From Chiloscyllium plagiosum (Eukaryota), in assembly GCF_004010195.1 (NCBI RefSeq), contig NC_057759.1, positions 945,340 through 988,824 on the forward strand: a DNA stretch of 43,485 nt, given 5' to 3'. Shown here one piece after another: positions 586 to 42,199 of this stretch; position 1 is the first letter of the stretch; each line of letters begins with the position of its first letter. The notes beneath the pieces are model-generated. The model was not told the DNA's origin, did no database searches, and saw only the letters and a list, made by a program, of their open reading frames with translations. The position numbers were made by a program, and so were the translations under genes.

Positions 586-589
586 AATG

Positions 590-1109: not shown

Positions 1110-1445
1110 GAAGCAAGCCATTCGGCCCATCAAGTCCATTGCAACCTTCTGAAGGACAACATAAGCACACCAACCACCCTATTCAATTCCTGTAACCTTG
1201 CATTTCCCATAGCTAATCCAACTAACGGATTCAACTGTGAACACTATGGGCAATTTCCCATGGCTAATCCATCTAACCTGCACATCTTTGGGTTGTGGGA
1301 GGAAACCGGAGCGCCAGGAGCAAACCCACTCAGACTCAGGAAGAATGTGCAAATTTCACACAGACCATCGCCCAAGGCTGGGATTTAACCCGCGTCCCTG
1401 GAGCTGTGAGACAACAGTGCTAACCACCGAGTCAACGTGCCACCA
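1110..1445 (-). mobile_element. HE1-like tRNA-derived V-SINE
   Basis: Reverse strand has a tRNA-like head with A/B boxes (TGACTCGGTGGTTAGCAC...GGGTTAAATCCC), a V-domain (TTTGCACATTCTTCC...TCCGGTTTCCTCCCACA) and a CR1-derived tail. Confidence 0.85.
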
Positions 1446-1656
1446 GCGAGCGTGATCTGCCATTCAATGGCTGGTCTGTGGTCTAACTCCATAGAAATGC
1501 CTTTGGACCCTCTCCTGTTAATAACTTTGCAAACAGCATTTCTCTCAGATTGAAAACTAACATCTGATTCAGCCTCCACTGTGGTTTGTTGGCCAGAGTT
1601 CCAAACATCTCCCTCCCTTTGTGTGTAAATCGTGCAACGTGACATTTTAAACATAC

Positions 1657-1686
1657 CGTGTACCTCCAGATGTGAAACCCTTCTTA
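1657..1686 (-). CDS. Candidate 30-nt phase-1/1 mini-exon (xRRVSHLEVH), gene unassigned
   Basis: Acceptor ttctctctcgtttcttttaacAG, donor cacg|GTATGT, open in phase 1, length divisible by 3. Confidence 0.35.
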
Positions 1687-1851
1687 CTGTTAAAAGAAAC
1701 GAGAGAGAATTGGCTGTCACTCCTACAAAAGTTCTCATTTTCGATTTTAAACTCTGTGAGATGATGCACATACCCGTGCGATCATGTGTCATTTGCTTAG
1801 AGAGGAATCTGCTGTTTGAAATCCTGCAGCCACGGGTTTTGGGGCAGTTAA

Positions 1852-2179
1852 CAAACTCGCATTCCTGGACGTCACAGTAGAAATAAAGGGAAACGGAGAA
1901 CTACAAACCTGTGTATACAGAAAACCGACAAACACTGACCAAATACTCAACTACACCAGCAACCATCCCAATACACACAAACCAAAGCTGTAACAGAACA
2001 CTATTCCAACGAGCCACCACACACTGCAGCACAGACGAACTTCGGAAAACAGAGGAGAACCACTTATACGAAGTATTCAAGAAGAAAGGATACTCAAAAA
2101 ACACAGTGCGCAGATTCCTCAAGAACAACCCACAACAAGCAGACAAAACACAGCCAGAAACCCTAACCACCTTACCATA
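1852..2179 (+). mobile_element. Penelope-like element RT C-terminal/thumb fragment
   Basis: Translates LAFLDVTV...TCVYRKPTNTDQILNYTSNHPNTHK, then a frameshift, then RTLFQRATTHCST...GYS...TLPY, which are PLE RT-thumb motifs. Runs into the gap. Confidence 0.85.
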
Positions 2180-2715
2180 NNNNNNNNNNNNNNNNNNNNN
2201 NNNNNNNNNNNNNNNNNNNNNNNNNNNNNNNNNNNNNNNNNNNNNNNNNNNNNNNNNNNNNNNNNNNNNNNNNNNNNNNNNNNNNNNNNNNNNNNNNNNN
2301 NNNNNNNNNNNNNNNNNNNNNNNNNNNNNNNNNNNNNNNNNNNNNNNNNNNNNNNNNNNNNNNNNNNNNNNNNNNNNNNNNNNNNNNNNNNNNNNNNNNN
2401 NNNNNNNNNNNNNNNNNNNNNNNNNNNNNNNNNNNNNNNNNNNNNNNNNNNNNNNNNNNNNNNNNNNNNNNNNNNNNNNNNNNNNNNNNNNNNNNNNNNN
2501 NNNNNNNNNNNNNNNNNNNNNNNNNNNNNNNNNNNNNNNNNNNNNNNNNNNNNNNNNNNNNNNNNNNNNNNNNNNNNNNNNNNNNNNNNNNNNNNNNNNN
2601 NNNNNNNNNNNNNNNNNNNNNNNNNNNNNNNNNNNNNNNNNNNNNNNNNNNNNNNNNNNNNNNNNNNNNNNNNNNNNNNNNNNNNNNNNNNNNNNNNNNN
2701 NNNNNNNNNNNNNNN
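2180..2715. other. Assembly gap (536 N)
   Basis: Run of N. Confidence 1.
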
Positions 2716-3110
2716 CTCTTTCTCTCTCTCTTCCTCTCTCACTCTCAATCTTGCCCCCACACTCTTTCTCTCCCTCTCTCAATCCTGCCCCCACACTCTT
2801 TCTTTCTCTCCCTCTCTCAATCCTGCCCCACACTCTTTCTCTCCCCTCCCTCAATCCTGCCCCACGGACATTCTCTCCTCTCTGGATCCTGCCCCACACT
2901 CTCTCTCTCTCAATCCTGCCCCCACACTCTTTCTTTCTCCCCCTCTCTCAATCCTGCCCCACACTCTTTCTCTCCCCTCCCTCAATCCTGCCCCACGGAC
3001 ATTCTCTCCTCTCTGAATCCTGCCCCACACTCTCTCTCTCTCAATCCTGCCCCCACACTCTTTCTCTACCCTCCCTCAATCACGCCTCTCTCTCTCGCTT
3101 TCTATCTGTC
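2716..3110 (+). repeat. Pyrimidine-rich minisatellite, ~30-bp unit CAATCCTGCCCCACACTCT(TTC)TCTC
   Basis: About 11 imperfect copies of (A)ATCCTGCCCCACA with CT-rich spacers. Confidence 0.9.
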
Positions 3111-3591
3111 TCACCCCATCCTCTTACAAATATTTTAACTGCAAACTCGAAAACACAAACCAATTTGAATTGTTTTCACTCCTCCTAATAGCATGGCACT
3201 GGCAACTCATTAATCCTAGAGACAAATGCATACAATGTTTCATTTAGATAATAACATGTAACAACCACTTACAGAAAACAAGCAGGCAAAACACCTTCAT
3301 ATGCATCATCGAATAGAATCCAAACACAAAGTCGACCTCTCTCTTTCTGGGAGGGTAAATACTTCAGGGAGGCTAATAATTTCTCCTGTGGCCTTCCTGA
3401 ATAAAGGAAATAAATGGATGTGTGGCTTCATTGAGCAGGGAATGAGGTTACTCGGTCCACCTAGCAGCAGTGGATACTTGTAACCTGTGACTATCCGTCT
3501 CCCTGAGTGGGTTACAAACTGGTTTCTCTCCACCTCCCCCTTTTCCCACAATTTTACTCCCTTTAACTGAGGCGAATAAAGGGAGCTCAGC

Positions 3592-3850
3592 AAACATAGA
3601 GTCATACACCACAGAAACAGACCCTTCGACCCAACTCGCCCATGCTGACCAGGTTTCCCAAACTGAACTAGACCCATTTGCCTGCGATTGGGCCCTATCC
3701 TGCTCAACCTGTCGAATTCAATCCAATACAATCCAGTACAAATGTCTTTTCAATGGAGCAATTTCAGTTATCGCTATCACTTCCTCATGCAGCTCATTCC
3801 AAAAATGCATGATCATTTGTGAGAAAAAATGTACCCGTCAGATCCCCTTT
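3592..3850 (-). mobile_element. CR1/HER1 LINE 3' end fragment
   Basis: CATAGAGTCATACA...GAAACAGACCCTTCGACCCAAC is the reverse complement of the 3' tail also seen at 36900-36955. Confidence 0.75.
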
Positions 3851-4102
3851 CTCTCCCATCAGTAAGCCGGACAAACATGTCTGACAAACATGCACAGCCT
3901 TTCCAATGGGTACATGACCCTGGAGGGATTTAGCGCCACATCTCTCACCCCAGGAACCAGGGAGACAATCTAAAGGGGGAGATCAGGATCTGGCTTCTGC
4001 AGATCAGTCTGCAGTTCTTAATCATCAGCTGTGGGGTCACAGGGAAATTAACAGCGTCTGTGGGATGACCTTGGATTAGAGAGAACAGGAACTGATACTA
4101 AC

Positions 4103-4135
4103 CATCCAGACACAGGTCTAATGGACTGCCTGCAA
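4103..4135 (-). CDS. Candidate 33-nt phase-1/1 mini-exon (xAGSPLDLCLD), gene unassigned
   Basis: Acceptor ttcccgtttctttgtgtatcAG (alternative AG 6 nt downstream), donor gatg|GTTAGT, open in phase 1. Confidence 0.3.
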
Positions 4136-4609
4136 CTGATACACAAAGAAACGGGAAGTAAACCTGAGCCGTTGACAGCGAGCTCCTTATCTGACAGAAA
4201 CACTTGCCAACAAGGCAAGAGGATTGATGTGAGTCAACAGACTCAAAATGAAATTCTCTCTCTCTCTCTGCACAAATGTTGCAGACCTTTTATAAACTCT
4301 GATATAACTCTGATTTCTCTCTCTATCTCTCTCTTCAGAGGTGTCACCAGAACTGCTGAGTTTCTCCAGTGCTCTCTGTGTTGGTTTCAAATTTCGAGAG
4401 TCCGGCAATATGTTGCTTTTGGAACCTGGTAAAATTGTATTCTTTGTATCAGACGACAATGGCCCCACTCCTGGTGAAAGTGTGTTCACTGCTGTTCAAG
4501 CAAAGAAGAAAGACGTGGTGGCACATTTCAAAATAACTTTGCATCACTCTGTCAGAATAGAAACACAGGATTACGTAACTACACGTTATGGAAATGGGGT
4601 CCATACAAC

Positions 4610-5190
4610 TATAGGACTAGGAGTTGGCCATTCTGCCCATCGAGTCTGTTCTGCCATTCAAAGAGATAGTGACTGATCTGATCACCCTCAACTCCACTTT
4701 GCCACATTTCCCCTATGACCCTCGATTCCCTTTTTGATTAAAAACGTCTCTATCTCAGCTTTGAATATCCTGAAAGACCCAGCCTTGAATTTTACGGATT
4801 CAATCCCTTCTGAACGAACAAATTCCTCCTTATCTCCGTCTTATTCTTAGATAATACCCCTCTGGCCCCATGCGCTTCCCCACAAAGGGAAACAACTTCT
4901 TTCCAAATCTCCCCTGTCAAATCCCTCTAAGAACTTTCAATAAGATCACCTCTCATTCTTCTAAACTCCAATAGGACAGGCCCAATCCATCCAACCTCTC
5001 CTCGTCAGACAGTCCCTCCATACTCCGGAACAGCTGAGTGAAACTTCCCTGGACTGCCTCCAATGCCCAGGTATATCTTTCAGACAGGAATCCCCAAAAC
5101 TATTCACGGTCTCCCAGCTGACTAGTGTCTTGTATAGTCTTTAAACAAAATGTCCGAATGTTTATCCACCATTCCGTCTGAAATAAAGAC
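4610..5190 (-). mobile_element. Degenerate CR1 LINE 3' fragment
   Basis: Reverse of the CR1 3' UTR and ORF2 end (GGCCATTCTGCCCATCGAGTCTG...; AGATCACCTCTCATTCTTCTAAACTCCA reads LEFRRMRGDL on the minus strand). Confidence 0.75.
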
Positions 5191-5209
5191 TGCTTGACCT
5201 CCCTATGAC

Positions 5210-6094
5210 CAGCTGAACAGAGGTGCTCTTGTTTGTCGTTCACTGACAATGCCTTCTCGATCCCTCTGATAAGGGCATTCTCAATGGGAGTGTCTTTCAA
5301 CTTTGCCAGAAGTTGCTTCCGCCTCTGTAATCGAACCAACACCTGGATCGTAAGAAGTAGTTTCCTCAACTGCTTGAGTACCTCAAAGAATCTCCGTACC
5401 TTTGTAAATTGCATTTGGTGTTTTTGAAGGTGTTCCTCATGTACCACAACATCAGACAGCATTGCAGTGTGTCACGGTATGATTTGGGATCTCCAGTGGG
5501 CAGGTCTTATGTTAATCCTACGGACTGAGCGATAGCTTCTCCCTGAGGAACAAGGTAATCTACTCCCTCCCCTCTGTAAATCAGCATTCACCACAAATCT
5601 GCATTCGCTGTCCCCTCTTTCTGTCCCTAATCTGTCCCTGTCTCGATTCAATTCTCCTTTTCTATTTATGTTCAAAACAAACATTTGCTCCACCTTTTGT
5701 GTTGAATTGTTAAACATTTTGCTAATCTGTTCATCACTCTCTTTTCAACTTATCCATTTGGGTGTTACTTTAGCCAGGAGAAAGTGAGGTCTGCAAATGC
5801 TGGAGATCAGAGCTGAAAATGTGTTGCTGGAGAAGCGCAGCAGGCCAGACAGCATCCAGGGAACAGGAGAATTGACGTTTCGGGCATAAGCCCTTCTTCA
5901 GGAAGGGTTTATTCCCGAAACGTCGATTCTCCTGTTCCCTGGATGCTGTCTGGCTGCTGCGCTTCTCCAGCAATACATTTTCAGCTGTTACTTTAGCCCT
6001 CTGTTTTCTTTACTTGGGCAGTTTAACTGTTGACTGCACAGCAAGTCAATTTTCACCCTCATTTCCAGTGGTTGCATCTCCAGCTGGCTTGTTT
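5210..6094 (-). pseudogene. Decayed large coding exon of unknown gene, interrupted by a hammerhead element
   Basis: After removing the 5776-5985 insertion and one TSD copy, 662 nt lie between acceptor ctcttttatcAG and donor ctg|GTCATA. They read in one frame for 220 codons with only four stops (3 TGA, 1 TAA) and end in an amphipathic stretch VRRFFEVLKQLRKLLLTIQVLVRLQRRKQLLAKLK. Confidence 0.4.
5776..5985. mobile_element. Inverted-dimer PLE-derived short element with minimal hammerhead ribozyme; 13-bp TSD
   Basis: TGTTACTTTAGCC at 5763-5775 and 5986-5998; internal palindrome; minus-strand core CTGAAGA-A-GGGC-TTAT-GCCC-GAAACGTC at 5901-5874. Confidence 0.85.
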
Positions 6095-6134
6095 CTGATA
6101 AAAGAGTTGGGATGCTTTTGTGAACGAATAGGAC

Positions 6135-6269
6135 GTGTGAGAGAGAGGGTGTGCGAGAAAAAGTGGTGTGAGAAAGACCACAGACTTCTGAGAGAGGGTT
6201 TGTGTGTGTGGGTGTGAGATTGTGTGTGAGACTGTGCGTGTGTGAGACTGTTTCCGTGTGTGTGTGTGT

Positions 6270-6310
<41 letters not shown>

Positions 6311-7122
6311 TTTGTGGCAGAGTATGTATGTGTGTGAGAGAGTGTGTGAGACAGAATGTCTGTGTGAGAGTGTACATGAGACAGAAAGAGAGAGTTGGTG
6401 ACAGTAAGTGTGTGTGTGTGAGGGTGAGAGGGAGACTGTGGTTGGAGGAAAGAGTATGTGAGAGTACGTGTGTGTGAGAGAGAGAGAGGACGTGTGAGTG
6501 AGAGAGAAAGAATCTATGTGAACGTGTGACTGTGTGTGTGCATGGGTGAGCGATTGTGCGATAGAGATAGAGAGACTGTATGTGAGATGGGAGAGATAGT
6601 GAGTGAGAGACAGTATGTGTGAGTGTGAGAGAGTGTGGGTGAGAAACAGTGTGCGTGTGAGAGAGTGAGTGTGAGAGAATATGTGTGAGAGAGTGTATAT
6701 ATAAGAGAGTGTGTGTGAGAGCGTCTGTGTTTGTGTGGATGCGAGAGAGTATATGAGACAGAGTGTGTGTGTGTGAGAGAGTGTGTGACCAATGTGTGTG
6801 AGCGAGTGTATGAGACAAAGTTCGTGTGTGTTTGGGAGTATGTGTTAGACAGAGTGAGAGAGTGTGTTTCAGACAGTGTATGAGCGAGATTCAGTGCGAG
6901 AGAGAATGTCCGTGTGAAAGAGTGAGTGCATGTGAGACGCAGTGTGTGGCTATGTGAGAGTATGTGTGAGACAGAAAGAGATAGAGAGTTGATGAGAGTA
7001 AGTGTGTGTGCGTGTGCGGGTGAGAGGAAAGGTTTGGGAGAGAGGAAAATGTGTGTGAGTGAAAGAGACAGAGTTTGTGTGTGTGAGAGAGAGCGTGTGT
7101 GAGTGTGCAGTGTGTGTGAAGT
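6135..7122 (+). repeat. Degenerate (GT)n/(GA)n compound microsatellite
   Basis: About 1 kb of GT/GA dinucleotide mosaic; explains the His/Thr/Leu/Ser-rich spurious ORFs. Confidence 0.95.
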
Positions 7123-7134
7123 GTCATACATTTC

Positions 7135-7390
7135 TACAATATGGAAACAGTCCATCTGGGCCAACATATCAGTGGCGCTCAGTTTTCACAATTAATACTA
7201 ATCCCATGTGTTTGTATTTAATCCGTATCCTTCCATACCAATCCTATCCATGTATCTGCTTAGACGTTTCTGGAATTACAAAACTGTACTCGCTTCCTTC
7301 ACTACCTCGGGCAGCCTGTTCCAGACACTCAACACCCTTTGTGTAAAAAATTGCACCACAGGACTCTTTTGTATCTCTCCCCTCCCACTT
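7135..7390 (-). mobile_element. CR1 3' end fragment
   Basis: ATGGAAACAG...ATCCATGTATCTG...TTCACTACCTCGGGCAGCCTGTTCCAGACACTCAACACCC is the reverse of the CR1 W(N)xLP region and tail. Confidence 0.65.
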
Positions 7391-8329
7391 TGCTGAAACC
7401 CTCATAAACATGAAGCAGGTTTTGTAGATGTGCACTTGTGATAGCAAGGATATGTGCCAAGTGCTGGGGAAATGGGATTAGACAATAGTGAGGTGGTTAC
7501 TTTTGACCAAAGACACGATGCGCTGATGGACTTTTTTCCTGTGCTGTAGTCTTTTACAACTCCCTGCCATTGGCTCTTATCTGTCCTCTGGGGCAATTAT
7601 GAATGGGGGGAAATAAACGCTCACCCAGTCAGTGATGCCCACATCACATGAACGATTGTAATAAAAATTGTGATTTGTTTTAACATGAATTGAATTGAGT
7701 TGATGGCCACATTCTCGTGGTTACTAAGGATTTGGCCTTTGGAGTAATAGAGAAGGGAAAGCATAGAAGGAGGCCCTTCAGCTCAATGCCTCTGTGCCTG
7801 ACAGATCAATCTTGACTGATCGATCTCTGCTTTGACTCATCTGGGTGAGCTCCTCCCCTGAGAGTAATTGGTGTGCTGTAAAATATGTGAGCGACAGCTG
7901 GGCTAATCTGACCTCTAATGGCACTTTGTGATATGAGGCAGCTTGGTGTGGAAATGACGGTGGTTAATGTCACCAATCTCCTTCCCAGTCACGGGTTTAC
8001 CTGGTGGGTGTTGTGGGTGTGTGTACGCTAACCAGTCTGTGGTGTGTGATGCTACACAATGGAATTCCCATATTCTCTCCAAGGTGATGTGGAACAGGAA
8101 TGTCATTTCTGTGTCAAGCTACCTCACCTGGCTGCAACAAATTATAGACACATCACAAATAGGAGCAGGAATAGCCCCTTTCATCCTGCTCCCCTCCCAC
8201 CCCACATTCAACAGGCTCGAATCTGGGTCCCTGACGCTGTACGGTAGCAGTGCTAACCACTGAGCCACCATGCTGCCCACAAATAGAGGATAGAGTGGAG
8301 TGTAGGCCAAACGGGAGTGAGTAGAGCGG

Positions 8330-8995
8330 GGCTCAACAGAAATGGGAAGATGATAGAGATGGGGGGAGAGGAAATTGGAGAGGGCAATAGAGTGGGGGGG
8401 GGCAAGGTTCAGAGGATGGTTATTGAGGAGAAATGGGGGAGAAGATTAGAGTTGCGGGAGATTGAGGCGACATGGGGTGGGGAGCAATGGAGTTGGGGGG
8501 ATAGATTGGCCCCCTTCCCTGTTTCCTGTGCACCCCACTCTATCCCCCTCCCATGTTTGCCCTGCCACCGCCATATCCTCCTCCCCTGTTACCTGGTCCC
8601 CACTTTATTTCCCTCCACTGCTCCCCCTGTCTCCCTATTCTATCTCCCACCCCGTGTCCCCTGATCAGTCACTCTATACCCCTCCTACTTTCCCCTGCTC
8701 CCCACTCTATTCTGCTCCACTGTTTCCCCTGCCCCCACTCTATCCAATTTCAATGTTACCCCTGCCTCCCAGTCTATTCTCTCCCCTGTTTCTACTACCC
8801 CATCTATCCCCCTTTTGTTTCCCCTACCACTCCCACTCTATCCTCATCCCCATTCCCCCAGCCCCCACTCTATTCCCCTCCCCATTTCCTCTGCCCGCCT
8901 AACTCTTTGCCAGTTTTGTGTTTTCCATGCCCTCCCATTCCCCTCCACTCATTTCCTCTCTCCCCAAACTCTCCACCTTCTATCCCCCTTAAGCC
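8330..8995. repeat. Low-complexity purine-rich then pyrimidine-rich tract
   Basis: GGGGAG/ATAGAG-rich block followed by CCCC(A)CTCTAT-rich block of roughly complementary composition. Confidence 0.8.
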
Positions 8996-9269
8996 CACAT
9001 AGTATTGCAGAAAGATCACTTGACCTGAAACATTAACTCTGGTTTCTCTCCACAAATACGACCAGACCTGCTGAGCTTTCAAGCAATTGCAGGTTTTTAA
9101 TTTATGATTTACCACCTTCTCAATTCTTTTGATTTTCATTCTCTGATAACTATCTCGCATCTCATCAACAGGGTTCCATCAGCTTACCTCTATCTAATAA
9201 AGAAAATCTCCTAATATATTATGTACAGGATTTTGCTCATTACTGAATACAGACTCATTGCGTACAAAC

Positions 9270-9930
9270 GCAAATACCACTAAGGCAGATGCAGTTTAAA
9301 GTGGATCGACGTAAGCTTGGCCAATTGGGGAGCAAGAACACGAAGGTGGATTGCTTTCCGAATGGCGATGGATTGGGAAAAGAGAATTGAGGACTGGAAT
9401 TGGGATTTCATGTTAGGGCTGTTCAAGACATTGGCCAGTCCACGTTTCGAGTATTGCATACAATTCCTCTCGCCATGCTGTTATTAAATTGGAAAGGGTG
9501 CAGGAAAGTTTTACAAGGATGTTATCAAGGTTCGTGAGTCTTAATATTAAGGGGACGCTGGAGAGCCTGGGACGATTTCTTTTTCCTGGAGGGTCAGCGT
9601 CTGAGGAGTCGATCTATAGAGTTTTATACAATCATAAGGGGCATACATAAGGTCAAGGTCTTTATCCCAGGGTAGAAAAGTAGAAATGAGGGCATAGATT
9701 TTAGATGACAGTGGAGAGATGTAAAAGAGACCTGAGGGGCAATTTTCCATGCAGTAGTTGTTGCATACGTTGAAACAGCAGCTACAGGACAAGTACATGG
9801 ATAGGAAAGATTTCAACAGATATTGGCCAAGTGCACGAAAATGGGGCTGGTTCAGATTAGGAAGCCTGGTCAGCATGGATGAGTTTGGCTGAAGTGTCTG
9901 TTTCCCTGCTATATGACTCTATGACTCCAT
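9270..9930 (+). mobile_element. Degenerate CR1 LINE 3' fragment
   Basis: Decayed TL..PxFEYCIQ, LERVQ..FTRML and RGDL motifs; CTATGACTCTATGA tail. Confidence 0.75.
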
Positions 9931-10319
9931 GATTAGGGGCATGCATGCTGTCCTTGACAGCAATGCCCTACATCCTTTACCTGAATGAGGGACTGCAGTG
10001 TTTAAAACCTGTAACTCAGTCACTGTCTTTGCTCGCTCTAATGCTTAACAATTCATCGACATAGTCCTGCTGTTCCATTGAAAGAAAAATGGGATCTATT
10101 GACCAGAACCTTCTGCCCTCGCACTGTCGTTGTCCCTCATGATGTTTATCGGTTTGTAATCAGACCTGTACTGCTCGTTTCTTGATGGACAGCAGTTATC
10201 AGGTCAGTACGAGGGCGGTGTTAAAATATTACATCATCAACAAAGCCTGTATTTACTTCAATCAGAACCATTATTGGGTGCCGTAGCAGTATCCCTACCT
10301 CCAGACTGAGAGGCCAACA

Positions 10320-10650
10320 TTTCTTTTATTCCTGGGAGGAGGGCATCACTGGAAAGGTCAGCATTTACTGCCTATCCCAATTGCCCAGAGGGCAGTTACA
10401 AATCAATCACATTGCTGTGTGCCCAGAGTCACATGTAGGCCTGACCAGGTAAGGATGGCAGTTTCTCTCCCTAAAGGACATTAGTGAACCAGATGGGTAT
10501 TACCGACAATTGATTTGCTATCACAATCAGTCTTTAAAGTCAAGAATTTTGTTGAATTTAAAATCCACTATCTTTCGTGGTGGGATTCAGACCTGGGTCC
10601 CCAGAATATTACTGGGGACTCTGATGAACAGTTCACCGATAACACCACCA
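10320..10650 (-). mobile_element. SacSINE1-like DeuSINE
   Basis: Reverse of the Deu domain (GTCACATGTAGGCCTGACCAGGTAAGGATGGCAG...AAGGACATTAGTGAACCAGATGGG) with a tRNA-like head (GGGATTCAGACCTGGGTC). Confidence 0.75.
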
Positions 10651-10989
10651 GGCCAACGCTTCCCCATCCAAAGTACAAGTCTGCAGCTCTGGATGTGTCT
10701 GATACCCCCACCCCCATCATCGTGGCGTTTCCCAAACATCTGCAGTGAGAGACATCCCACACATTCACACAATGCAGTACAAAATCTTACAAAGCTGGGC
10801 CAATGCATCCGGCAGGGGTTTCGGATTGTTGAGAGTTCTCTTCTCCATGTAGACTTCCTATCCACAGGATGCAGAGGAGATTCACCAGGATGTTGTCTGG
10901 GATGGAGCATTTCAGTGATAAAGTGAGGCTGGATAAGCACGGCTTGCTTTCTTTGGAGCAGAGTAGACGGAGGCGGTTTTGATTTTGTT

Positions 10990-12545: not shown

Positions 12546-12580
12546 CTTCTTCAAATCGGAGGAGAAAGCAATTTCGTTGC
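12546..12580 (-). CDS. Candidate downstream exon (GNEIAFSSDLKK), phase 1 to 0
   Basis: Very strong acceptor ttctttctcatctgtttctctttcattttcAG, donor gaag|GTTTGT; phase-compatible with the upstream exon. Confidence 0.45.
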
Positions 12581-13593
12581 CTGAAAATGAAAGAGAAACA
12601 GATGAGAAAGAACTCTTTGCAGGCATTAGCGATTCGATCTGGTCCCTGGAGGGCTGATCAACACTAAAGACAGAGCTGCATCTTGTGAAATTGTAGCTGT
12701 GCTTTTGTCAATTTAAAAAAAAAACACTCAGTGCAATACTTTCTAAATTGTGTCCCTCTCAATCAATCCAGACATTTCAGAATATTGCATTTAGAAAAGT
12801 CGAAACTGTTGAAATCCAGCAATTGTTTTTCTGACCATTAAGACGGTGTATCAGTTTTTACGATGCTTGTCAGTGGAACATCTTCGACGGGCCGTCTTAA
12901 TCTCGTTAGTCTTTGCACCACTTGCTCAGTACTTGTTCATAAAAGACAGGAGTGAACTATTCGGGTTCCATACATTTGGGTTTTAACTGCTGTATGCTGC
13001 TAGTTCAGTGTGATTCAGCTGGCTGCATGGCTAGTTTTTGCAAAGCATTATATGTCAACCTTTGACATCAACATGGTTACAATTCCCACACCAGCTGAAG
13101 TTACCCTGAGGGACTTTCGTTCTGAACCTCTCCTCTCTCAACACGCACAATGACCTGCAAATTAATTTTGATGATCCTCCCACTTCTCTCTCTCTCTCCC
13201 TCTCTCTCTCTGTCTCTCGCTGTCGAATGAGAGGACAGGATAATGGCCTGGAAGAACATGACTTTTACTGCTCATCCCATGAGAAGCATTTGCATGATAA
13301 TTGTAAGCTCAACTTTCTGAACAACAATAAAATTGATGATGCTTTTATTTTCTTGGCTATCTCAAAACATTGAGTGGCAGTATTTGGCAAATTGGCCTTG
13401 AGTATTATGTAACAAAAACGGGACTTGCTTTCCACAGATCTCTCTCCACAGATGCTGCCAGACCTGCTGATTTTCTCCAGAAATGTCCGAATTTGTTTCA
13501 GATCTGCATCATCTGCAATTCTTAGTTTTATGTGAAACTGATCTGTATCTGCCTCAGAGAAGAATAATGTACGTGATGCACTGCCATTCTCAC

Positions 13594-13683
13594 CCACAGA
13601 TTCCCTCTCTAATTGCTCTGTGAGTTTGTTCTGGATCACTGACAACATATAAATCATCTCCAAATTCTTTGTCTTTGTCCTAT
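13594..13683 (-). CDS. Candidate cytoplasmic exon (DRTKTKNLEMIYMLSVIQNKLTEQLERESV), 90 nt, phase 1/1
   Basis: Acceptor ctctctccctttcctctcccacAG, donor gtgg|GTGAGA; only the phase-1 frame is open from this AG. Confidence 0.45.
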
Positions 13684-14015
13684 CTGTGGGAGAGGAAAGG
13701 GAGAGAGCAGATCAGATTAGAACTTGCTTCTGATTGGCTGGTTTACTGCCCAATATTCGTAAGTGCTGGAGTTTTTTTTAGCTCATGCTCCAATCCCTCA
13801 CACTCCCGTCACTGCAAGCACCATGTTACTGCATTTCCCTGTTTGGAACTGGTGTCTCTCTCTTTCACTCTCTCTCTCACACACACACACACTTCCCCAG
13901 CAACTGGGATCGTGCTATTGTTGGAGGTTCAATGATTCCACCCTCCCCACCACAAACACCCACCCCTCCCATCCTATCTCACACGATCGTAGTACTGAAG
14001 CAAAGAGATCTTTGC

Positions 14016-14075
14016 CGGGCTCTTTTCTCTTCTTGATGGTGACCTCTGAATAAACCAGATCTGCAGTGGTGTTTT
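14016..14075 (-). CDS. Cytoplasmic ITIM exon of Ig-superfamily receptor ([20 protein letters not shown])
   Basis: Acceptor actttatttccttgtAG; 60 nt, phase 1/1; canonical ITIM LVYSEV; donor is non-canonical GC (cccg|GCAAAG). Confidence 0.7.
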
Positions 14076-14131
14076 CTACAAGGAAATAAAGTGCCACAAG
14101 GAACACACCTCGGTCCGATAGCGTCACTATA

Positions 14132-14232
14132 ATGGATGGATGGATGGATGGATGGATGGATGGATGGATGGATGGATGGATGGATGGATGGATGGACGGA
14201 CGGACGGACGGATGGATGGATGGATGGATGGA
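14132..14232 (+). repeat. (GGAT)n/(GGAC)n tetranucleotide microsatellite
   Basis: About 25 near-perfect units. Confidence 0.98.
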
Positions 14233-14999
14233 CAAATATATTTGGAATGAGATACACAGGAGCTTGATTAGGAAGGGGGATGAAGGTTAAAGGGGAGAAA
14301 GGTGGAGAGTGAGGTTGAGGCACACATTTGCTCCAATTGACGGAGAGAGGTGTCTCGATAGGCTGAATTGCCTAATTTTGCTTCTGTATCTTATGGTTTC
14401 GAGATCTTATCTTGATATGTAGACAGATAAACATGCATATAGAGACATTTCATTAGGCATCATTAAGTTAGCCAAGACCTCTCCAAAGACTAATGTAAGG
14501 GAAAAGTGGTCCTTTTCATTTTCAATTGCTCGGCGCTCGTGCGTCTGAGGAACCGGGTCTTTGCACATAATCGCTCATTGTAAACAACATCTGTTGAATT
14601 TCTCAACACTGGAGAACTCCGCCCTTAGTTTCCAAGGTTACTTGAGATAAAATAAGCGTTATTAAGTCGAACAAAACACCCTAATTGAGATCCAATTACA
14701 GAATGTTATCAACAGTAGCCGTTTGGAAAAGAGATTAGTTGAAGATAAAGGTCTACAGCACAGAAGAAAAGCTCATTGAATGTGTGCCAGTCAAAAACAA
14801 ACAGTCAAAAACTTTCAGATCCCATCTCCCCTGCGCTTGACCTGCAGGTTTAGCATCGCAAGTGCACATTTAAATTCTTCTTCAATGAGGATTGCTGCCT
14901 CTCCCACCCTTACAGGCTGTAGTTTTCAGACTTCCCACCACCCTCTGGTATTCCTCACATTCCCTGTGAATCTCCTGCTCCTTACTTCAATCTATGGTG

Positions 15000-15990
15000 G
15001 CCAAGGTGATGAAGAAGGCATATGGCCTGCGTGAATTCATCAGACAGGGCATGGAGTACAAGAGTTGGCAATTTATCTTGCAGTTACGTAAAATCCTTGT
15101 TAGGTCACAACTGGAGCATTGTGTACTGCTTTGATCGCCACACTACCAGAGGACATGGAAGCTTTAGACAGAGTGCAGAGAAGGTTCACTGGGATGTTGC
15201 CAGCTCTCAAGGACATTTGCCAGGAGGAAAGGTTCAAACACTATGATTGCGTTCATTGGAAAGACGGCAGCTGAGAGGAGACATGATGGAAGCCTCCAAA
15301 ATTACGAGAGGCACATAGGGTAGATTGTCAGAGGCTTTTTCCCAAGGGTGATGTTTTAATTTACAAGGGGGCACAGATTCAAAGTGGGGAGGGGGGGGAT
15401 TTAAAGGAGATGTGCGAGGGAAGCTTTTCATGCAGTGAGTGGTCGGAACCTGAAAAGTATTGCCAGAAGTGATGGTGGAAGCAGGCACGTTTAAAAGGTA
15501 CCTGGGTGGTCACGTGGACAGGGAGTGAATAGTGGGATAAAGACCAAATAAAGCCATGAGCTGTGTTTATGTTTTGAGTTTGGTTAGGACATGATGATCA
15601 GCACAGGTTTGGAGGGCCAAAGGGCCTGTTCCTTTCCTATACTTTCCTTTTGTTCATTTCTTTTCCATGGCCCCCATTAATCCTTCCAGTGGGAAGGAAA
15701 TGTTTCTTCCTGTTTACCTTTTCTAAGCTCGTCATCACTTTGTACATCCTAAACAAGAAGCAGTTGGTAACTCTGGGGGTTAAAGGGATTGAAGGGTATG
15801 GCGGAGAAAGCGGGGAACCAGGGGCTGAGTTGGATGTTCAGCAGTGATTCTATCAAACAGGCAGGACAGGCTAGAAGGACTAAATGGCCTATTGCTAGTT
15901 TCTGTGGGAACTGGAGGCGGAGTTGAATGGTCAGCCATGATTATAATGAATGGCAGGGCAGGCAAGAAGGGCTGAATGGCCTCCTCCTGT
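15000..15990 (+). mobile_element. Cluster of degenerate CR1 LINE 3' fragments
   Basis: KSLLG..LEHCV, L.RVQRRFTGML and RRQLRGDMM motifs, with repeated CR1 tails (GGGCCAAAGGGCCTGTT; GGGCTGAATGGCCT). Confidence 0.7.
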
Positions 15991-16148
15991 TCACTACCTT
16001 CTGCACCCCTTCAGACACCGCAGCTCCATGGAAATCGGCCCCACCCGAGCCATCTGATGGCTTGGATGTTTATCCAGAATTTCTACTAGGTTACAGTGCA
16101 ATGTCACTGTGTGGGGCTCTTTAATCACACCGATACAATGGCACTCAC

Positions 16149-16222
16149 CAGCATTGTGTGCTGCTCCAACTACCGCATACTCCAGATTGCTAGCTGCTGC
16201 CCCTTCACCAGAAGGTTGGGAT
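16149..16222 (-). CDS. Duplicated cytoplasmic ITIM exon, copy 2 (RSQPSGEGAAASNLEYAVVGAAHNA)
   Basis: Acceptor cttcctttccttcccctttctactggaactAG, donor gctg|GTGAGT; 74 nt, phase 2 to 1; ITIM LEYAVV. Confidence 0.7.
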
Positions 16223-16424
16223 CTAGTTCCAGTAGAAAGGGGAAGGAAAGGAAGTCATCATTTCGAATGCAATGCTTTCAAAACCATGTTCAACTTCAAC
16301 AAAAAGGCAAAGCTATCACAGAAAGCACAAAACACATCGAGATCTGGTATTTCCTGGTCCTACGTCCCTGGTTTCCATCCGAACATCGAGTTTTCTCACC
16401 TTCAAGGAGCTGCTCAGTTCTCCA

Positions 16425-16595
16425 ACTTGTTTTCACTAATGTTCTTTGGAGAAGGAAATCCGCCTTCCTTACCTCGTCTGGGCCTTAATGTGACTGCATA
16501 CTCTGGTTAAATATAACTGCCCTCTGGGGCACTTAGGGATGGACAATAAATGCTGCCCCAGCCAGTGACAGCAACATCCCCATGAATGAAGAAAA
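16425..16595 (+). mobile_element. SacSINE1-like DeuSINE 3' half (second copy at 17143-17313)
   Basis: TTCACTAATGTTCTTTGGAGAAGGAAATCCGCC...AACTGCCCTCTG...CAATAAATGCTG...CATCCCATGAATGAA; same family as 10320-10650. Confidence 0.7.
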
Positions 16596-16772
16596 GTTGT
16601 CTGGGACCTTCCTGGAATATGGTTGCCTGGTTAGTCGATAAGACGCAAGTTAAAAGAATGCAGTCATATCCAAGCTCCCTCTATGTCTTATTCACTTCTG
16701 TCGTCTCTCCCTGATTGAGAAGAATCAGGATAAACAATTACAAAAATTACAACCGTCATTTCTGTCATTTAC

Positions 16773-16803
16773 CTCCTGGGCTGTGACTCAGTTGACGAAT
16801 TGA
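16773..16803 (-). CDS. Duplicated 31-nt cytoplasmic exon, copy 2 (VNSSTESQPR), weak acceptor
   Basis: Same as 17491-17521 except the first base. Donor ggag|GTAAAT is retained. The acceptor is junction-derived (gcactgtaacctAG) and lacks the original pyrimidine tract. Confidence 0.4.
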
Positions 16804-16866
16804 CTAGGTTACAGTGCAATGTCACTGTGTGGGGCTCTTTAATCACACCGATACAATGGCACTCAC

Positions 16867-16940
16867 CAGCATTGTGTGCTGCTCCAACTACCGCATACTC
16901 CAGATTGCTAGCTGCTGCCCCTTCACCAGAAGGTTGGGAT
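16867..16940 (-). CDS. Cytoplasmic ITIM exon, copy 1 (RSQPSGEGAAASNLEYAVVGAAHNA)
   Basis: Strong pyrimidine tract plus AG, donor GTGAGT; 74 nt, phase 2 to 1, matching the phase-2 end of the 31-nt exon. Confidence 0.75.
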
Positions 16941-17490
16941 CTAGTTCCAGTAGAAAGGGGAAGGAAAGGAAGTCATCATTTCGAATGCAATGCTTTCAAA
17001 ACCATGTTCAACTTCAACAAAAAGGCAAAGCTATCACAGAAAGCACAAAACACATCGAGATCTGGTATTTCCTGGTCCTACGTCCCTGGTTTCCATCCGA
17101 ACATCGAGTTTTCTCACCTTCAAGGAGCTGCTCAGTTCTCCAACTTGTTTTCACTAATGTTCTTTGGAGAAGGAAATCCGCCTTCCTTCCCTCGTCTGGG
17201 CCTTAGTGTGACTGCATACTCTGGTTAAATATAACTGCCCTCTGGGGCATTTAGGGATGGACAATAAATGCTGCCCCAGCCAGTGACAGCAACATCCCCA
17301 TGAATGAAGAAAAGTTGTCTGGGACCTTCCTGGAATATGGTTGCCTGGTTTGTCGATAAGACGCAAGTTAAAAGAATGCAGTCATATCCAAGCTCCCTCT
17401 ATGACTTATTCACTTCTGTCGTCTCTCCCTGATTGAGAAGAATCAGGATAAACAATTGCAAAAATTACAACCGTCATTTCTGTCATTTAC

Positions 17491-17521
17491 CTCCTGGGCT
17501 GTGACTCAGTTGACGAATTGG
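17491..17521 (-). CDS. First cytoplasmic exon (ANSSTESQPR), 31 nt, phase 1 to 2
   Basis: Acceptor gttctctctttcccttcAG, donor ggag|GTAAAT; phase-compatible with the TM exon. Confidence 0.7.
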
Positions 17522-17675
17522 CTGAAGGGAAAGAGAGAACATTTTCAGCATAATTTACAGTAACTTTGCACTGTCACAGATTGGAGCTGCCAAAACATTA
17601 TCTCAGTCTTATACAGGAAACAAACACAACAAGAGATGATAATTATCAAACCTGTCTTAATGCATTAAACAGCTG

Positions 17676-18075
17676 CATAGGGTTAGGGTGTTGGATAGGA
17701 TTAGGGTGAGGGCTAGGATTATGATGAAGCTTAAATTTAGTGCTAGTGTTTGGTTAAGGGTCATGGTTAGAGTTATGTTAAGAGTTAGCTTTAAGGTTAG
17801 AGTTATGGTTTGGATTAAGGTTAGGGTTAGAGACAGGATTAGGTTTAGGGTTAGGGCTAGGGCTAGAGTTAGGCTTAGGATTAGCGTTAGCTGTTTCGTT
17901 AGGACCAAAGTTAGAGTTAGGGTTAACGTTATGATGGAGTTACGTTGACGTTTACGGTCAAAGTTTGCGTTTGTGATGTGTTTGGGTTATGGTTAAGCTT
18001 AGTGTTAGAGTAAGGGTTAAGGTAAGGGTTTAGGGTTAGTCTTTGGACTTGGGTTCAGTTTATGATTGGGGGTAG
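17676..18075 (+). repeat. Degenerate interstitial telomere-like (TTAGGG)n hexamer array
   Basis: About 400 bp of GTTAGG/GCTAGG/GTTAGA/GTTATG hexamer variants, mostly in register. Confidence 0.85.
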
Positions 18076-18384
18076 GTCAGCCTGTCCAGTGAATACTGAA
18101 TACATTGAAGGAAGACATAAACAACGTTTTAATGAGTCATAGTTAAAAGAGAGTGAGGCAGGAAAGTGAAGTTGATCTCAAGACGTTGTCATTAACATGA
18201 GCTATTTAGGCCTTAGAAACTTTCTTTTTTTTTGGGAGGGGGGGGGGGTGTGTGTGGGGGGGGGGGGGGGGGGGGGGGGAGGCGGCTGTCACAGTTACCC
18301 GATCCAACAGGCTAACTTTGTGAGTGCTGTCCCTCCAGACTGTCAAGAACACGGTCTACTCCAGTTCCTGACCCTGACACTTTC

Positions 18385-18500
18385 CTCATTCCTGTAGAAG
18401 GGCTCATGCCCGAAAGGTCGATTCTCCTGACCTGCTGCGCTTTTCCAGCAATACATTTTCCGCTCTGATCTCCAGCATCTGCAGTCCTCACTTTCTCCAT
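18385..18500 (+). mobile_element. PLE-derived hammerhead short element (mutated core)
   Basis: CCTGTAGAAGGGCTCATGCCCGAAAGGTCGATTCTCCTG...GATCTCCAGCATCTGCAGTCCTCACTTTCTCC; same family as 5776-5985. Confidence 0.8.
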
Positions 18501-18614
18501 CACCTCCTTCCCCCAGCTCCCCTCATTCTGCTGAAAGGTTACATTCTGGCAAGGATGGCAGTGTCATGATGTGGGGATGTGGAACAAATCTCATTCCCAT
18601 GGAATGTTACAGAC

Positions 18615-18713
18615 CTGTGTCCTTCCGGTGGATGTAGCACACTGACACAACCAGGCCAGCCAACAGCAGAACTGGGAGGAGCGATGCCATGATTTCCTTG
18701 GAATAACTCCGAG
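18615..18713 (-). CDS. Transmembrane exon of Ig-superfamily receptor (ARSYSKEIMASLLPVLLLAGLVVSVCYIHRKDT)
   Basis: 99 nt, phase 1/1; acceptor ttcttgttgggttccAG, donor acag|GTCTGT; 21-residue uncharged hydrophobic span followed by HRK. Confidence 0.8.
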
Positions 18714-19509
18714 CTGGAACCCAACAAGAATTTTCGGCTCACGTTAACAAATTCACAAGGAAGTTTTTTTCACATTACCCCTGCGTCAGGTGCACAGTTA
18801 ACATCAGACTGACCAACCCCCCACAGATATGGAAGTGGGGGGTTCCATGGAAGTATCGAGAGTATCACAGTGTGGAGAATTCACCAATCCCACTTTCCCA
18901 TACTAACCCCACAAAGCCTTCAATGTTATGACATTTCAATTGCTGATCCAAGTACTGTTTAAAGGTTGGGAGTTTCCCTGCCAGCCAGTATGTTCCAACC
19001 TCCACCATCCTTTGGGTGGAACAATCCTCAATTTCCTGCTTTAAACCTCCCGTCCTTCACTTTATAATGGCCTCCCATCCCACCCTTGTAACTGATCCTT
19101 TGACTACGGGGAACACATGCTTCCTACTCCCCGGTCCCTTCCCCTCACATCTCCACCGGATTTCTCTCTCAGCATTTACTGTTTCATAGAAAATATCCCA
19201 AGATTATCCAGCCTCCCTCTCTTCCTCGTTAAAATCCAGAAAACGTCCTGGTAAATCTTCTCTGCACACTGCCTTCTCCATGGGGCGTGCAATTCCAGAT
19301 ATTTTTTGCATTCAAATTCCACCATCTGGTATGGGCGGGATCCCAGGAACACCACCCACCAACACTCTGGATCAATAACCTATGATAATACCACCCAGCT
19401 ATCACCTCCCCAATTGAGATGGTTAACAGTGTCTAATTGGTACAGACTGGATGGAGCGAATGGTCTTTCTCTGCGCTCTGTCTATGTTCGATCCGAGTGT
19501 CACTGTTAC

Positions 19510-19805
19510 CTCGCATCGTGAATTCGATGTAGTCGCTGGTCACATTAAAAATGGTGTTGTTTGTTCCTTTGTTGATTGCTGCACTGTGATACCTCCCGAC
19601 ATTGTCTCTCTGGAATGAATGAATAACCAGCTCACCACCATTGGCAGTCACATAGTAACCTGCACTGCCATTTCGTAGCAGCACGTTGTCACGGTACCAA
19701 GGGGTTCAGTGTCTTCCCTCACCCAACACCGGAGAACAAGGTGATTCCCGGACTGTATCTCAGTCCCATTAATGAAGTGAATCAGCACAGCATCTGTGAC
19801 AGGAA
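19510..19805 (-). pseudogene. Ig (C2/I-set, FcR-like/PECAM-like) domain exon with frameshift and second Cys>Ser
   Basis: Acceptor gttttctcctcAG, donor cgag|GTAACA. Translates xPVTDAVLIHFINGTEIQSGNHLVLRCWVREDTEP, frameshift near 19700, then WYRDNVLLRNGSAGYYVTANGGELVIHSFQRDNVGRYHSAAINKGTNNTIFNVTSDYIEFTMR. 296 nt is not divisible by 3, and YHS (agt) sits where YxC is expected. Confidence 0.85.
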
Positions 19806-20602
19806 CTGAGGAGAAAACACACCGTGATCAAAGAGCATGGAGTTTACCCATTGATTCAGATCGTCAGTGGGAATCAGTTTGACAATGATTTTCAAAGAGA
19901 GTTAGGGAATTCGATACATTCAGAAACTAATGCAATGGATGAGTGCGGTGGAAGTGGTTGAAGAGGGGACATGAACAACATTTAAAAGTCGCTTGGCCAA
20001 GTGCATGGATAGGAGTGGTTGAGAAGGATATTGGACGAAGTGCAGGGACATTGGGCTGTGCCATTTTTGTTTCAAAAACTGTGATGCTGGAAAAGCATAC
20101 ATAACATTCCTGATGTAGAGCTTATGCCCGAAACGTATCCAAACTGAATCTCAAAGGGTTAAACTTTCTGCAAACTGCAGAGGGTTAGCGCTAAGTCTGT
20201 GTGCTTGTCTCGCTTTCTCTCTCTCGTGCACGCACGCACACACACTCACAAACATTTTAGAAGATGACAACGAACAATAAAGACTAATTATTTCTGCAAA
20301 GCATTCTCGACATTCTAAAACTTGACAGTTCTGTTTTTAGTATCTATTTAAACAATCTCATTTAGGGTTCCATTAGGGTACTGTGAGAGTGAAATGGGGG
20401 AAGTCACATGACGATACAGACCAAGAGCAATCAAGGTATCATCTTACCTTGTGGGCCCATTGGTCTCAGGTCTCACCCTTAGGTGAAGCTCCTCTTTTCC
20501 AGTTTCATTCAAACGTAGCCCTTGTTGGAACCCTGCTCACAGCGTCAAATTATTAAAGTACAGATTTGAGACAGCCCAGGGAATCCCTTGTGGATTCAGA
20601 CC

Positions 20603-29590: not shown

Positions 29591-29964
29591 TTCCACAGAA
29601 TTTCCAGTGAACACAGCTCACACCTCCCCTGGTGCTGCCAGTAAACTTTACAATGCCAATGAAGCATTGGAGTATCTGCACTCCTTAAAAAATTACAATT
29701 TCTAATGATACCAATTACTCATTCACTGCTTCTGCTGATACACGACAGTGGAAACTTAGTGCTGGAGGCTTAAAGAAATGAGCAGCTTTGAAACAAAAGC
29801 GTGTTAGATTTTAAGGATTTCAAGGTCCAAGTACGACTTGGAGTTCAAGTAACCTTTATTGCGACCCAGGTTTGTTACTGCTTCAGAGCTCCCCAGCAAT
29901 AAGGTGTACAAAATGTAGCTGCTTCTTAAAACTGCTCAAGGTCAAAGTGCACACTCTACCCACC

Positions 29965-30362
29965 CACAGTCTCAGATGGTGAGCGGGCTATCCCCAATGT
30001 GGACCCGTTCGTTCATTTGCAGGCTGGAGGAATCAAGTATTCCCTTCCCGCACTCAGGCAGGTGAACGGTTTCACTCTCGTGTGGACCCGCTGGTGTGTC
30101 CGCAAGTTGCCAATGAGACAGAATGCCTTTTTGCATTCAGGACAGGTGAATGACTGCTCCCTGGTGTGTTTGCAGGTTAACCAACCGACTGAATCCCTTC
30201 CCGCACTCTGAGCAGGTGAAAGGCTTCTCTTGCGTGTGGACCCGCTGGTGGGCCAGCACTGTAGATGACTCAGTGAACCCCCTCTCGCACACGGGGCATG
30301 TGAACGGCTTTTCTCCCATGTGAACCCGCTGGTGCCTTTGCAGATGTCCCATCTGACTGAAT
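29965..30362 (-). pseudogene. Tandem C2H2 zinc-finger gene 3' portion with two frameshifts
   Basis: [20 protein letters not shown]...[20 protein letters not shown]...; frameshifts near 30160 and 30056; last finger lacks its first His. The 5' part is in the gap. Confidence 0.85.
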
Positions 30363-30862
30363 NNNNNNNNNNNNNNNNNNNNNNNNNNNNNNNNNNNNNN
30401 NNNNNNNNNNNNNNNNNNNNNNNNNNNNNNNNNNNNNNNNNNNNNNNNNNNNNNNNNNNNNNNNNNNNNNNNNNNNNNNNNNNNNNNNNNNNNNNNNNNN
30501 NNNNNNNNNNNNNNNNNNNNNNNNNNNNNNNNNNNNNNNNNNNNNNNNNNNNNNNNNNNNNNNNNNNNNNNNNNNNNNNNNNNNNNNNNNNNNNNNNNNN
30601 NNNNNNNNNNNNNNNNNNNNNNNNNNNNNNNNNNNNNNNNNNNNNNNNNNNNNNNNNNNNNNNNNNNNNNNNNNNNNNNNNNNNNNNNNNNNNNNNNNNN
30701 NNNNNNNNNNNNNNNNNNNNNNNNNNNNNNNNNNNNNNNNNNNNNNNNNNNNNNNNNNNNNNNNNNNNNNNNNNNNNNNNNNNNNNNNNNNNNNNNNNNN
30801 NNNNNNNNNNNNNNNNNNNNNNNNNNNNNNNNNNNNNNNNNNNNNNNNNNNNNNNNNNNNNN
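30363..30862. other. Assembly gap (500 N)
   Basis: Run of N. Confidence 1.
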
Positions 30863-42198: not shown

Positions 42199-42199
42199 G

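What the first reader, a model, noticed from the sequence alone, without database searches (positions are those of the whole stretch)
12546..19805. Hidden minus-strand inhibitory Ig-superfamily (FcR-like) receptor gene with multiple ITIM exons
Seen: a chain of splice-flanked, phase-compatible exons, largely invisible in the ORF track. They are Ig (19805-19510), uncharged TM (18713-18615), 31 nt (17521-17491), 74 nt with LEYAVV (16940-16867), 60 nt with LVYSEV (14075-14016), then candidates at 13683-13594 and 12580-12546. Established: a VPV-start C2-type domain with C.V...T.P...WY, an uncharged TM and ITIMs split over small exons is the layout of FCRL/PECAM/LITR-type inhibitory receptors. Inference: a member of a probably poorly characterised cartilaginous-fish immune receptor family. 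No signal-peptide exon or further Ig exons were recognised upstream.
Basis: partly seen in the sequence, partly recalled or inferred. Interest (0 to 1): 0.75.

Follow-up and report, generated by a model that had tools for sequence, protein, structure and literature searches.

The report
Dead shark Fc-receptor-like gene fragment
Six of the seven proposed exons are real pieces of a bamboo-shark immune-receptor gene, but this copy lacks its front end and its last exon and has a frameshift, so it likely makes no receptor; its intact relatives in the same gene cluster likely belong to the Fc-receptor-like family, which a 2026 review still says sharks lack.

Summary
Six of seven exons match RefSeq carpet-shark 'Fc receptor-like/PECAM-like' models; candidate 13683-13594 does not. 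The chain is not phase-compatible. The Ig exon is 296 nt against 303 in the intact paralogues: a 7-nt deletion gives a stop at 19650-19648, and the second Cys is Ser. Further lesions: no leader or upstream Ig exons, with homology ending at about 20136; GC donor at 14016 where 8 of 8 paralogous exons have GT; about 1.04 kb deleted at 10864-10867, removing the terminal ITIM exon; a 718-bp tandem duplication. Four other DNA runs hold near-identical contigs with the 7 nt present, so the frameshift is allele- or assembly-specific. Verdict: a pseudogene fragment in a cluster of at least 13 copies on contig C50. Intact members are closest to human FCRL5 (E 9e-77; next 2e-16) and to turtle and gar FCRL3. 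They have a split leader but a 30-nt, not 21-nt, second exon; synteny is unresolved. The scan found this family, and broken copies of it, several times before on other DNA.

The parts
19806..20136 (-). 3' part of the intron before the last Ig exon; homology to paralogues ends at about 20136, at the edge of a high-copy repeat (5' breakpoint of the fragment)
   Evidence: 4 of 6 loci align to 20134-20136; the other two stop at 19906 and 19896; repeat depth
19510..19805 (-). membrane-proximal Ig exon, 296 nt; 7-nt deletion at 19700, stop at 19650-19648, second Cys codon AGT at 19585-19583
   Evidence: the intact paralogue exon scores Pfam Ig_3 E 2e-10
18615..18713 (-). uncharged transmembrane exon, 99 nt, phase 1-1, intact
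17491..17521 (-). 31-nt cytoplasmic exon, intact
16867..16940 (-). 74-nt cytoplasmic exon with ITIM-consensus LEYAVV, intact
16085..17520 (.). 718-bp tandem duplication (6 mismatches in 718); the second unit repeats the 31-nt exon (16803-16773, weak acceptor) and the 74-nt exon (16222-16149)
14016..14075 (-). 60-nt cytoplasmic exon with ITIM-consensus LVYSEV; donor GC here, GT in 8 of 8 paralogous exons
12546..12580 (-). 35-nt cytoplasmic exon, real, open frame
10864..10867 (-). junction of a deletion of about 1.02-1.05 kb that removed the terminal coding exon (ITYATL ITIM, NVYMNI, stop codon)

Best explanation
This stretch is the broken 3' part of one copy of a multi-copy shark immune-receptor gene (last Ig exon, transmembrane exon and four tail exons, with the front end and the terminal exon missing), and it likely makes no protein. 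It likely arose as a partial or later-truncated segmental duplicate in a tandem cluster, with its 5' break beside a repeat at about 20136, and then decayed (shown: the lesions; inferred: the route and the order). Intact paralogues encode type I membrane proteins with a two-exon leader, six to ten Ig domains in the three models counted, an uncharged TM and a tail with three ITIM-consensus motifs plus a terminal YxN motif (shown from models and exons). They likely work as FCRL-type brakes: Src-family kinases would phosphorylate the ITIMs and recruit SHP-1/SHP-2 when the receptor is engaged beside the B-cell receptor (inferred from established ITIM biology and the reported B-cell expression of similarly named genes; ligand unknown).
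For: Lesions: 7-nt deletion, bases present in 12 of 12 other full-length copies; Cys codon TGT in 13 of 13 other copies covering the site. GC donor against GT in 8 of 8. Terminal exon: paralogues carry 1046, 1042 and about 1017 nt more at the junction, and a genome search gives 15 terminal-exon places, none at this locus. Head: tblastn of 12 family proteins against window 19901-43485 gave one 24-aa hit inside a LINE-like ORF and no Ig or leader exon, whereas full-length paralogues have the previous Ig exon about 0.9-1.3 kb upstream in four loci and about 3.8 kb in one. Broken copies are common: 6 of 13 full-length Ig-exon copies are open with both cysteines. Family: top PDB hit human FCRL5, colinear over about four domains; top non-shark hits turtle and gar FCRL3 at 153-211 bits against 129 for the best PECAM1; tail motif order shared with turtle FCRL3, more loosely gar.
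Against: The 7-nt deletion is absent from near-identical contigs (1-3 other letters over 146-205 nt) in 4 of 4 other DNA runs laid, so one lesion is polymorphic or an assembly error. The other lesions were not checked in those runs, and neither breakpoint was shown bridged in independent DNA (output was dominated by repeats). A 500-N gap (30363-30862) and a gap just past the window end could hide sequence. The TM and tail exons keep open frames, and the Ig exon has no more private changes than intact copies (4 non-synonymous, 1 synonymous; intact copies 2-11 and 2-7), so decay is recent or undetectable by counts.
Confidence: 0.88

Rival explanations
1. The copy is a working short inhibitory receptor in some individuals: the frame-intact allele is spliced to a leader from far upstream (for example from the same-strand neighbour about 37 kb away), and the tail ends by read-through of the 35-nt exon, keeping two or three ITIMs.
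For: The 7 nt are present in four other runs. TM and tail exons splice in frame by coordinates, and read-through of the 35-nt exon gives a short C-terminus. A draft C. punctatum model (P0018) joins neighbour-like upstream exons (81-84%) to a last Ig exon whose first half is closest to this copy (89%).
Against: The second Ig cysteine is lost, and in three of the four runs a minority of the depth at 19585 lacks the Cys base, which fits the Ser form being shared (not shown directly). The neighbour is itself broken in several exons, with frameshifts and stops. P0018 is a hypothetical model that skips two Ig exons. The donor at 14016 is GC.
Confidence: 0.05
2. The gene is intact in the animal and the missing head, missing tail and duplication are assembly errors in a repeat-rich cluster.
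For: The assembly is fragmented (101,977 contigs), has N gaps near the locus, and the 7-nt deletion is not seen in other runs. The 718-bp units differ at only 6 sites.
Against: There is no N gap at either breakpoint. Independent contigs match 19789-20000 with no differences. The lesions are of five different kinds. The tail deletion junction carries a few bases found on neither side in the paralogues, which looks like a repair scar (inference).
Confidence: 0.06
3. Family-level rival: the cluster is not FCRL proper but a shark expansion of the PECAM1/MILR1 branch or of a LITR-like branch that shares domain types with FCRL.
For: RefSeq names many members PECAM-like. The two membrane-proximal domains score nearly as well against PECAM1 as against FCRL (penultimate 44.0 vs 45.2 bits; last 33.0 vs 40.0). 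The domain tree has only 80-83 SH-aLRT at the relevant forks. The second leader exon is 30 nt, not 21. No marker tested lies on C50.
Against: Whole-protein scores favour FCRL; 6 of 7 domain-type profiles rank an FCRL3 first among non-shark proteins, the seventh CD22. The tail resembles turtle FCRL3, not the two-tyrosine PECAM1 tail. A separate PECAM1-like gene lies on C24. No LITR or MILR1 appeared among the 58 hits, which scored only the 7,980 best word-sharing candidates of 389-1239 aa.
Confidence: 0.25

Closest known systems
RefSeq carpet-shark models named Fc receptor-like protein 2/3/5/6 or PECAM-like (P0001, P0005, P0006, P0007, P0010, P0021; Chiloscyllium, Hemiscyllium, Stegostoma, Rhincodon)
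   Same: Same last Ig domain (75-90% to the intact paralogue exon), TM, tail exons and motifs.
   Different: They have a leader, more Ig domains and, in most models, the terminal ITYATL/NVYMNI exon; this copy has none of these and is frameshifted.
Turtle and gar FCRL3-like proteins (P0026-P0028)
   Same: Best non-shark hits; membrane-proximal domain groups with their last domain (81 SH-aLRT); uncharged TM; tail ends in YxxV-x-IKK, YxVxYxxL and a terminal YENV/YMNI in turtle, more loosely in gar.
   Different: Only 26-27% identity; different domain number and order; these names are themselves automatic annotations.
Human FCRL5 (PDB 9loc/9lod); FCRL4 and Fc-gamma-RI
   Same: FCRL5 is by far the best solved-structure match of an intact member (E 9.4e-77), colinear over shark residues 80-476.
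   Different: The last Ig domain, the one in this window, does not list FCRL5 among its 60 best PDB hits. Second leader exon 30 nt against 21 nt. No antibody binding is shown for any shark member.
PECAM1
   Same: Related C2-type domains, uncharged TM, ITIM tail; scores close on the two proximal domains.
   Different: Lower whole-protein scores, a two-tyrosine tail, and a separate candidate gene on C24.

Membership tests
Functional gene of the shark C50 receptor family | Leader and upstream Ig exons linked to the last Ig exon | tested here: not met
Functional gene of the shark C50 receptor family | Open 303-nt last Ig exon with both cysteines | tested here: not met
   the frameshift is absent from contigs in four other runs
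Functional gene of the shark C50 receptor family | Terminal exon with ITYATL and stop codon | tested here: not met
Shark C50 receptor family (descent) | Homologous exons with the same lengths and phases | tested here: met
FCRL/FcR family (tested on intact paralogues) | Ectodomain closest to FCRL/FcR proteins by sequence | tested here: met
   6 of 7 domain profiles rank an FCRL3 first among non-shark proteins
FCRL/FcR family (tested on intact paralogues) | Domains assignable to subtypes D1-D5 by phylogeny | tested here: inconclusive
   quick tree, 77 rows by 95 columns, relevant forks 80-83 SH-aLRT, no mammalian or Xenopus reference rows
FCRL/FcR family (tested on intact paralogues) | Signal peptide split over two exons | tested here: met
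   31 coding nt plus a 30-nt second exon at one locus; 30-nt second exon at three loci; feature from PMC2413239 passages
FCRL/FcR family (tested on intact paralogues) | 30/21-bp leader rule of mammalian FCRL1-6 (met by only a fraction of Xenopus XFL genes, so not family-wide) | tested here: not met
   second exon 30 nt at 3 of 3 loci measured; PMC2413239 passage
FCRL/FcR family (tested on intact paralogues) | Uncharged TM with ITIM-type motifs on several small tail exons | tested here: met
FCRL/FcR family (tested on intact paralogues) | Synteny with the FcR locus | tested here: inconclusive
   zeta/FcR-gamma family hit on C12, NDUFS2 on an unplaced contig, CNOT3 (LRC marker) on C39, PRPF31 no hit; marker choice recalled; SLAM/CD2, IGSF9, DUSP23, TAGLN2 not searched
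FCRL/FcR family (tested on intact paralogues) | Immunoglobulin binding and phosphatase recruitment | not testable with these tools
   needs bench assays
PECAM1 | Single-copy orthologue with the PECAM1 domain series and two-tyrosine tail | tested here: not met
   multi-copy, four-tyrosine tail, separate candidate on C24
LITR (teleost) | FcR-like D1/D2 plus KIR/LILR-like proximal domains | not tested
   no LITR sequence was returned or 24

The most novel reading that the evidence does not exclude
The C50 cluster is a true, fast-turning-over FCRL family in cartilaginous fish. This would move the origin of Fc-receptor-like genes back to the jawed-vertebrate ancestor, against a 2014 survey and a 2026 review, and give candidate genes for the shark IgM Fc receptor named in a 1988 paper title. 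This window holds one of its dead copies, with a frameshift that differs between individuals or assemblies.
Probability: 0.7. Interest if true: 0.55.

Novelty: new member of a known kind. Interest (0 to 1): 0.22.

Why it matters
The fragment itself matters little: it is one of many broken copies and should not be chosen for cloning or annotation as a receptor. The family matters more. PMC4016189 (2014; passages read) found no FcRL in sharks, and PMC13337447 (2026; passages read) repeats this and asks how sharks manage Fc-dependent phagocytosis. Yet RefSeq auto-labels these genes FCRL, and PMC11372145 (2024; one passage read) reports such genes in bamboo-shark B cells. Intact copies on C50 make Ig binding and ITIM signalling directly testable. 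That point was already made by earlier notes of this scan on other copies.

Tried and rejected
Expression: no RNA holder was listed for the Ig exon. Raw single-cell reads (about 2% of X21, 6% of X22, tissue unknown) gave zero depth over the Ig-exon bin, and none of the 15 joints shown (of 1,013) lay at exon boundaries; this is uninformative, because no intact paralogue was laid as a control. Two contigs of another organism's run (X19, RNA guessed) stop exactly at the donor 19510 with 29 and 38 letters beyond: a weak hint of splicing in relatives. The DNA run was swamped by repeats, so the two breakpoints and the duplication were not verified. Pfam on the broken exon halves gave only a sub-threshold I-set hit. 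The first domain split missed several domains, including the turtles' last one, and was replaced. The careful tree did not finish; the quick tree is reported. Synteny markers were inconclusive. Private-substitution counts do not separate this copy from intact ones. Unplaced contig C88184 was considered as the other allele and rejected: 81-93% identity over long blocks. No family exon was found downstream, in window 1-10400 plus 10 kb beyond. Literature: six searches listed no paper by title on a shark FCRL family; most subscription papers are not held. PMC5278576 mentions only GO terms, PMC7916592 passages did not report a shark FCRL, and the supplement search of PMC11372145 showed only tongue-sole rows (2 of 11 places seen, file cut when stored), so which loci its fcrl3/fcrl5 names refer to is unknown.
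Full report
Observation. All seven stretches lie at the stated coordinates behind an AG. The TM, 31-, 74-, 60- and 35-nt exons keep length and phase in six paralogous loci (TM 102 nt in two, one 28-nt variant) and encode the peptides seen in RefSeq shark models. Joined by coordinates from the TM exon on, they read in one frame with LEYAVV and LVYSEV. The 13683-13594 candidate has no AG-flanked 90-nt equivalent in any of the six loci and is absent from the models.

Organism and family. The window is G000:C50:945340-988824. C50 has the length (8,079,144) given for Chiloscyllium plagiosum protein records, and one C50 locus matches such a protein at 92-100% over most exons, so the species is very likely the whitespotted bamboo shark (inference). 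The Ig exon has 15 genomic matches, 13 on C50 including this one; TM, 74-nt, 60-nt and terminal exons give similar lists. These counts are lower bounds. An intact paralogous exon is an Ig domain (Pfam Ig_3 E 2e-10) and retrieves 20 carpet-shark proteins of five species, named FCRL-like, PECAM-like and similar.

Lesions of this copy. (1) A 7-nt deletion at 19700, where 12 of 12 other full-length copies have bases, shifts the frame to a stop at 19650-19648. (2) The second Cys codon is AGT; 13 of 13 other copies covering it have TGT. (3) The donor at 14016 is GC; 8 of 8 paralogous exons have GT. (4) At 10864-10867 three paralogues carry 1046, 1042 and about 1017 more bases; in the two translated, these hold the terminal exon with ITYATL, NVYMNI and the stop. 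A genome search for that exon finds 15 places, none at this locus. (5) Homology ends at about 20136, inside the intron and beside a high-copy repeat. Twelve family proteins find no Ig or leader exon in 19901-43485, while full-length paralogues have the previous Ig exon 0.9-1.3 kb upstream in four loci and about 3.8 kb in one. (6) A 718-bp tandem duplication with 6 mismatches repeats the 31- and 74-nt exons. Only 6 of 13 full-length Ig-exon copies are open with both cysteines, so broken copies are common in this cluster.

Results against this reading. In 4 of 4 other DNA runs of the same species label, a contig with only 1-3 other letters over 146-205 nt carries the 7 bases (32 of 964 pieces shown). 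The frameshift is therefore polymorphic or an assembly error. Those contigs do not reach the Cys codon. At 19585 the Cys base has 250.6 of 284, 50.7 of 54.1, 252.4 of 267.5 and 139.6 of 139.6 depth; the remainder fits, but does not prove, a shared Ser form. The breakpoints were not verified in independent DNA, and N gaps lie at 30363-30862 and just past the window. Private substitution counts do not single this copy out. The RNA laid was uninformative.

How intact members likely work. Shown from models and exons: a leader on two exons (31 coding nt and 30 nt); six, eight and ten Ig domains in the three models counted; an uncharged TM; a tail with LEYAVV, LVYSEV and ITYATL, which fit the ITIM consensus (consensus recalled), and a final YxN motif. 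Inferred from established ITIM biology: phosphorylation by Src-family kinases, SHP-1/SHP-2 recruitment and damping of activating receptors. PMC11372145 (one passage read) reports fcgr1a-like, fcrl3, fcrl5 and pecam1 as highly expressed in bamboo-shark B cells; which loci these names denote I could not see. The ligand is unknown.

Comparison with known families. An intact member's best solved-structure match is human FCRL5 (E 9.4e-77; next 1.8e-16), colinear over residues 80-476. Best non-shark database hits are turtle and gar FCRL3 (211, 205, 153 bits), then PECAM1 (129 and lower). Six of seven domain-type profiles rank an FCRL3 first among the non-shark proteins given (14 proteins), with narrow margins over PECAM1 on the two proximal domains. 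A quick tree groups the window's domain type with the last domain of turtle and gar FCRL3 (81) and the penultimate with turtle domain 4 (82): weak support. The tail resembles turtle FCRL3 rather than PECAM1, and a separate PECAM1 candidate lies on C24. PMC2413239 (passages read) gives the two-exon leader as invariable and the 30/21 rule as typical of mammals and a fraction of Xenopus genes; the sharks meet the first, not the second. Synteny was inconclusive. I put FCRL membership of the family at about 0.7.

Novelty. PMC4016189 (passages) found no FcRL in sharks and PMC13337447 (passages) repeats it in 2026. A reference list names a 1988 paper 'Fc receptor for shark IgM' (title only). Six searches listed no paper by title on this family, in a library that lacks most subscription journals. 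The genes are, however, already auto-annotated, and eight earlier notes of this scan describe the same cluster, several of them broken copies (unchecked AI notes, not independent support); the duplication was noted on this window too.

Verdict. Real exons, dead copy: a headless, tailless, frameshifted fragment of a shark FCRL-like cluster (0.88). Interest 0.22 for the finding; the family-level case would deserve about 0.55 if confirmed and is better pursued on intact copies.

Noticed in passing
G000:C50:~994,000-1,011,000 (L033-L035), same strand, just past the window end: A neighbouring copy with leader exon 2 and six Ig exons, broken by frameshifts and stops in several exons, with a GG donor on its 35-nt exon; its terminal exon would fall in an N gap. 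It shares a derived donor context with the window copy, a hint of tandem origin.
   Followed up: partly
G000:C50:2,928,000-2,938,000 (L016): Another headless copy: open last Ig exon and terminal exon, but TM donor CT and 74-nt acceptor AA; no upstream exons in 30 kb; its 5' break (homology ends at window 19906) differs from the window copy's.
   Followed up: partly
window 16085-17520; G000:C50:4,895,500-4,896,800; P0025: Tail-exon duplications that repeat a tyrosine motif recur: 31+74-nt exons here, the 60-nt exon in the 4.9-Mb copy (two LVYSEV in P0005), and a repeated VFYSVI block in a basking-shark model.
   Followed up: partly
G000:C24:48,062,000-48,079,000 (L040-L043): A separate multi-Ig gene whose exons match PECAM1 domains: candidate for the true shark PECAM1. 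Domain order was not fully resolved.
   Followed up: partly
window ~29900-30362 (minus), next to the N gap 30363-30862: Frameshifted C2H2 zinc-finger array fragment.
   Followed up: no
window 35684-36664, 40458-41169, 42156-42947 and others: LINE reverse-transcriptase-like fragments (recognised from the ORF list by recalled motifs); long simple repeats at 5988-7185, 8287-9036 and 32390-33834; degenerate telomere-like hexamer array at 17680-18075.
   Followed up: no
P0021, P0023 (C. plagiosum models): Some annotated isoforms skip the last Ig exon, or the last Ig and TM exons together, so the membrane-proximal domain may be optional in intact members.
   Followed up: no
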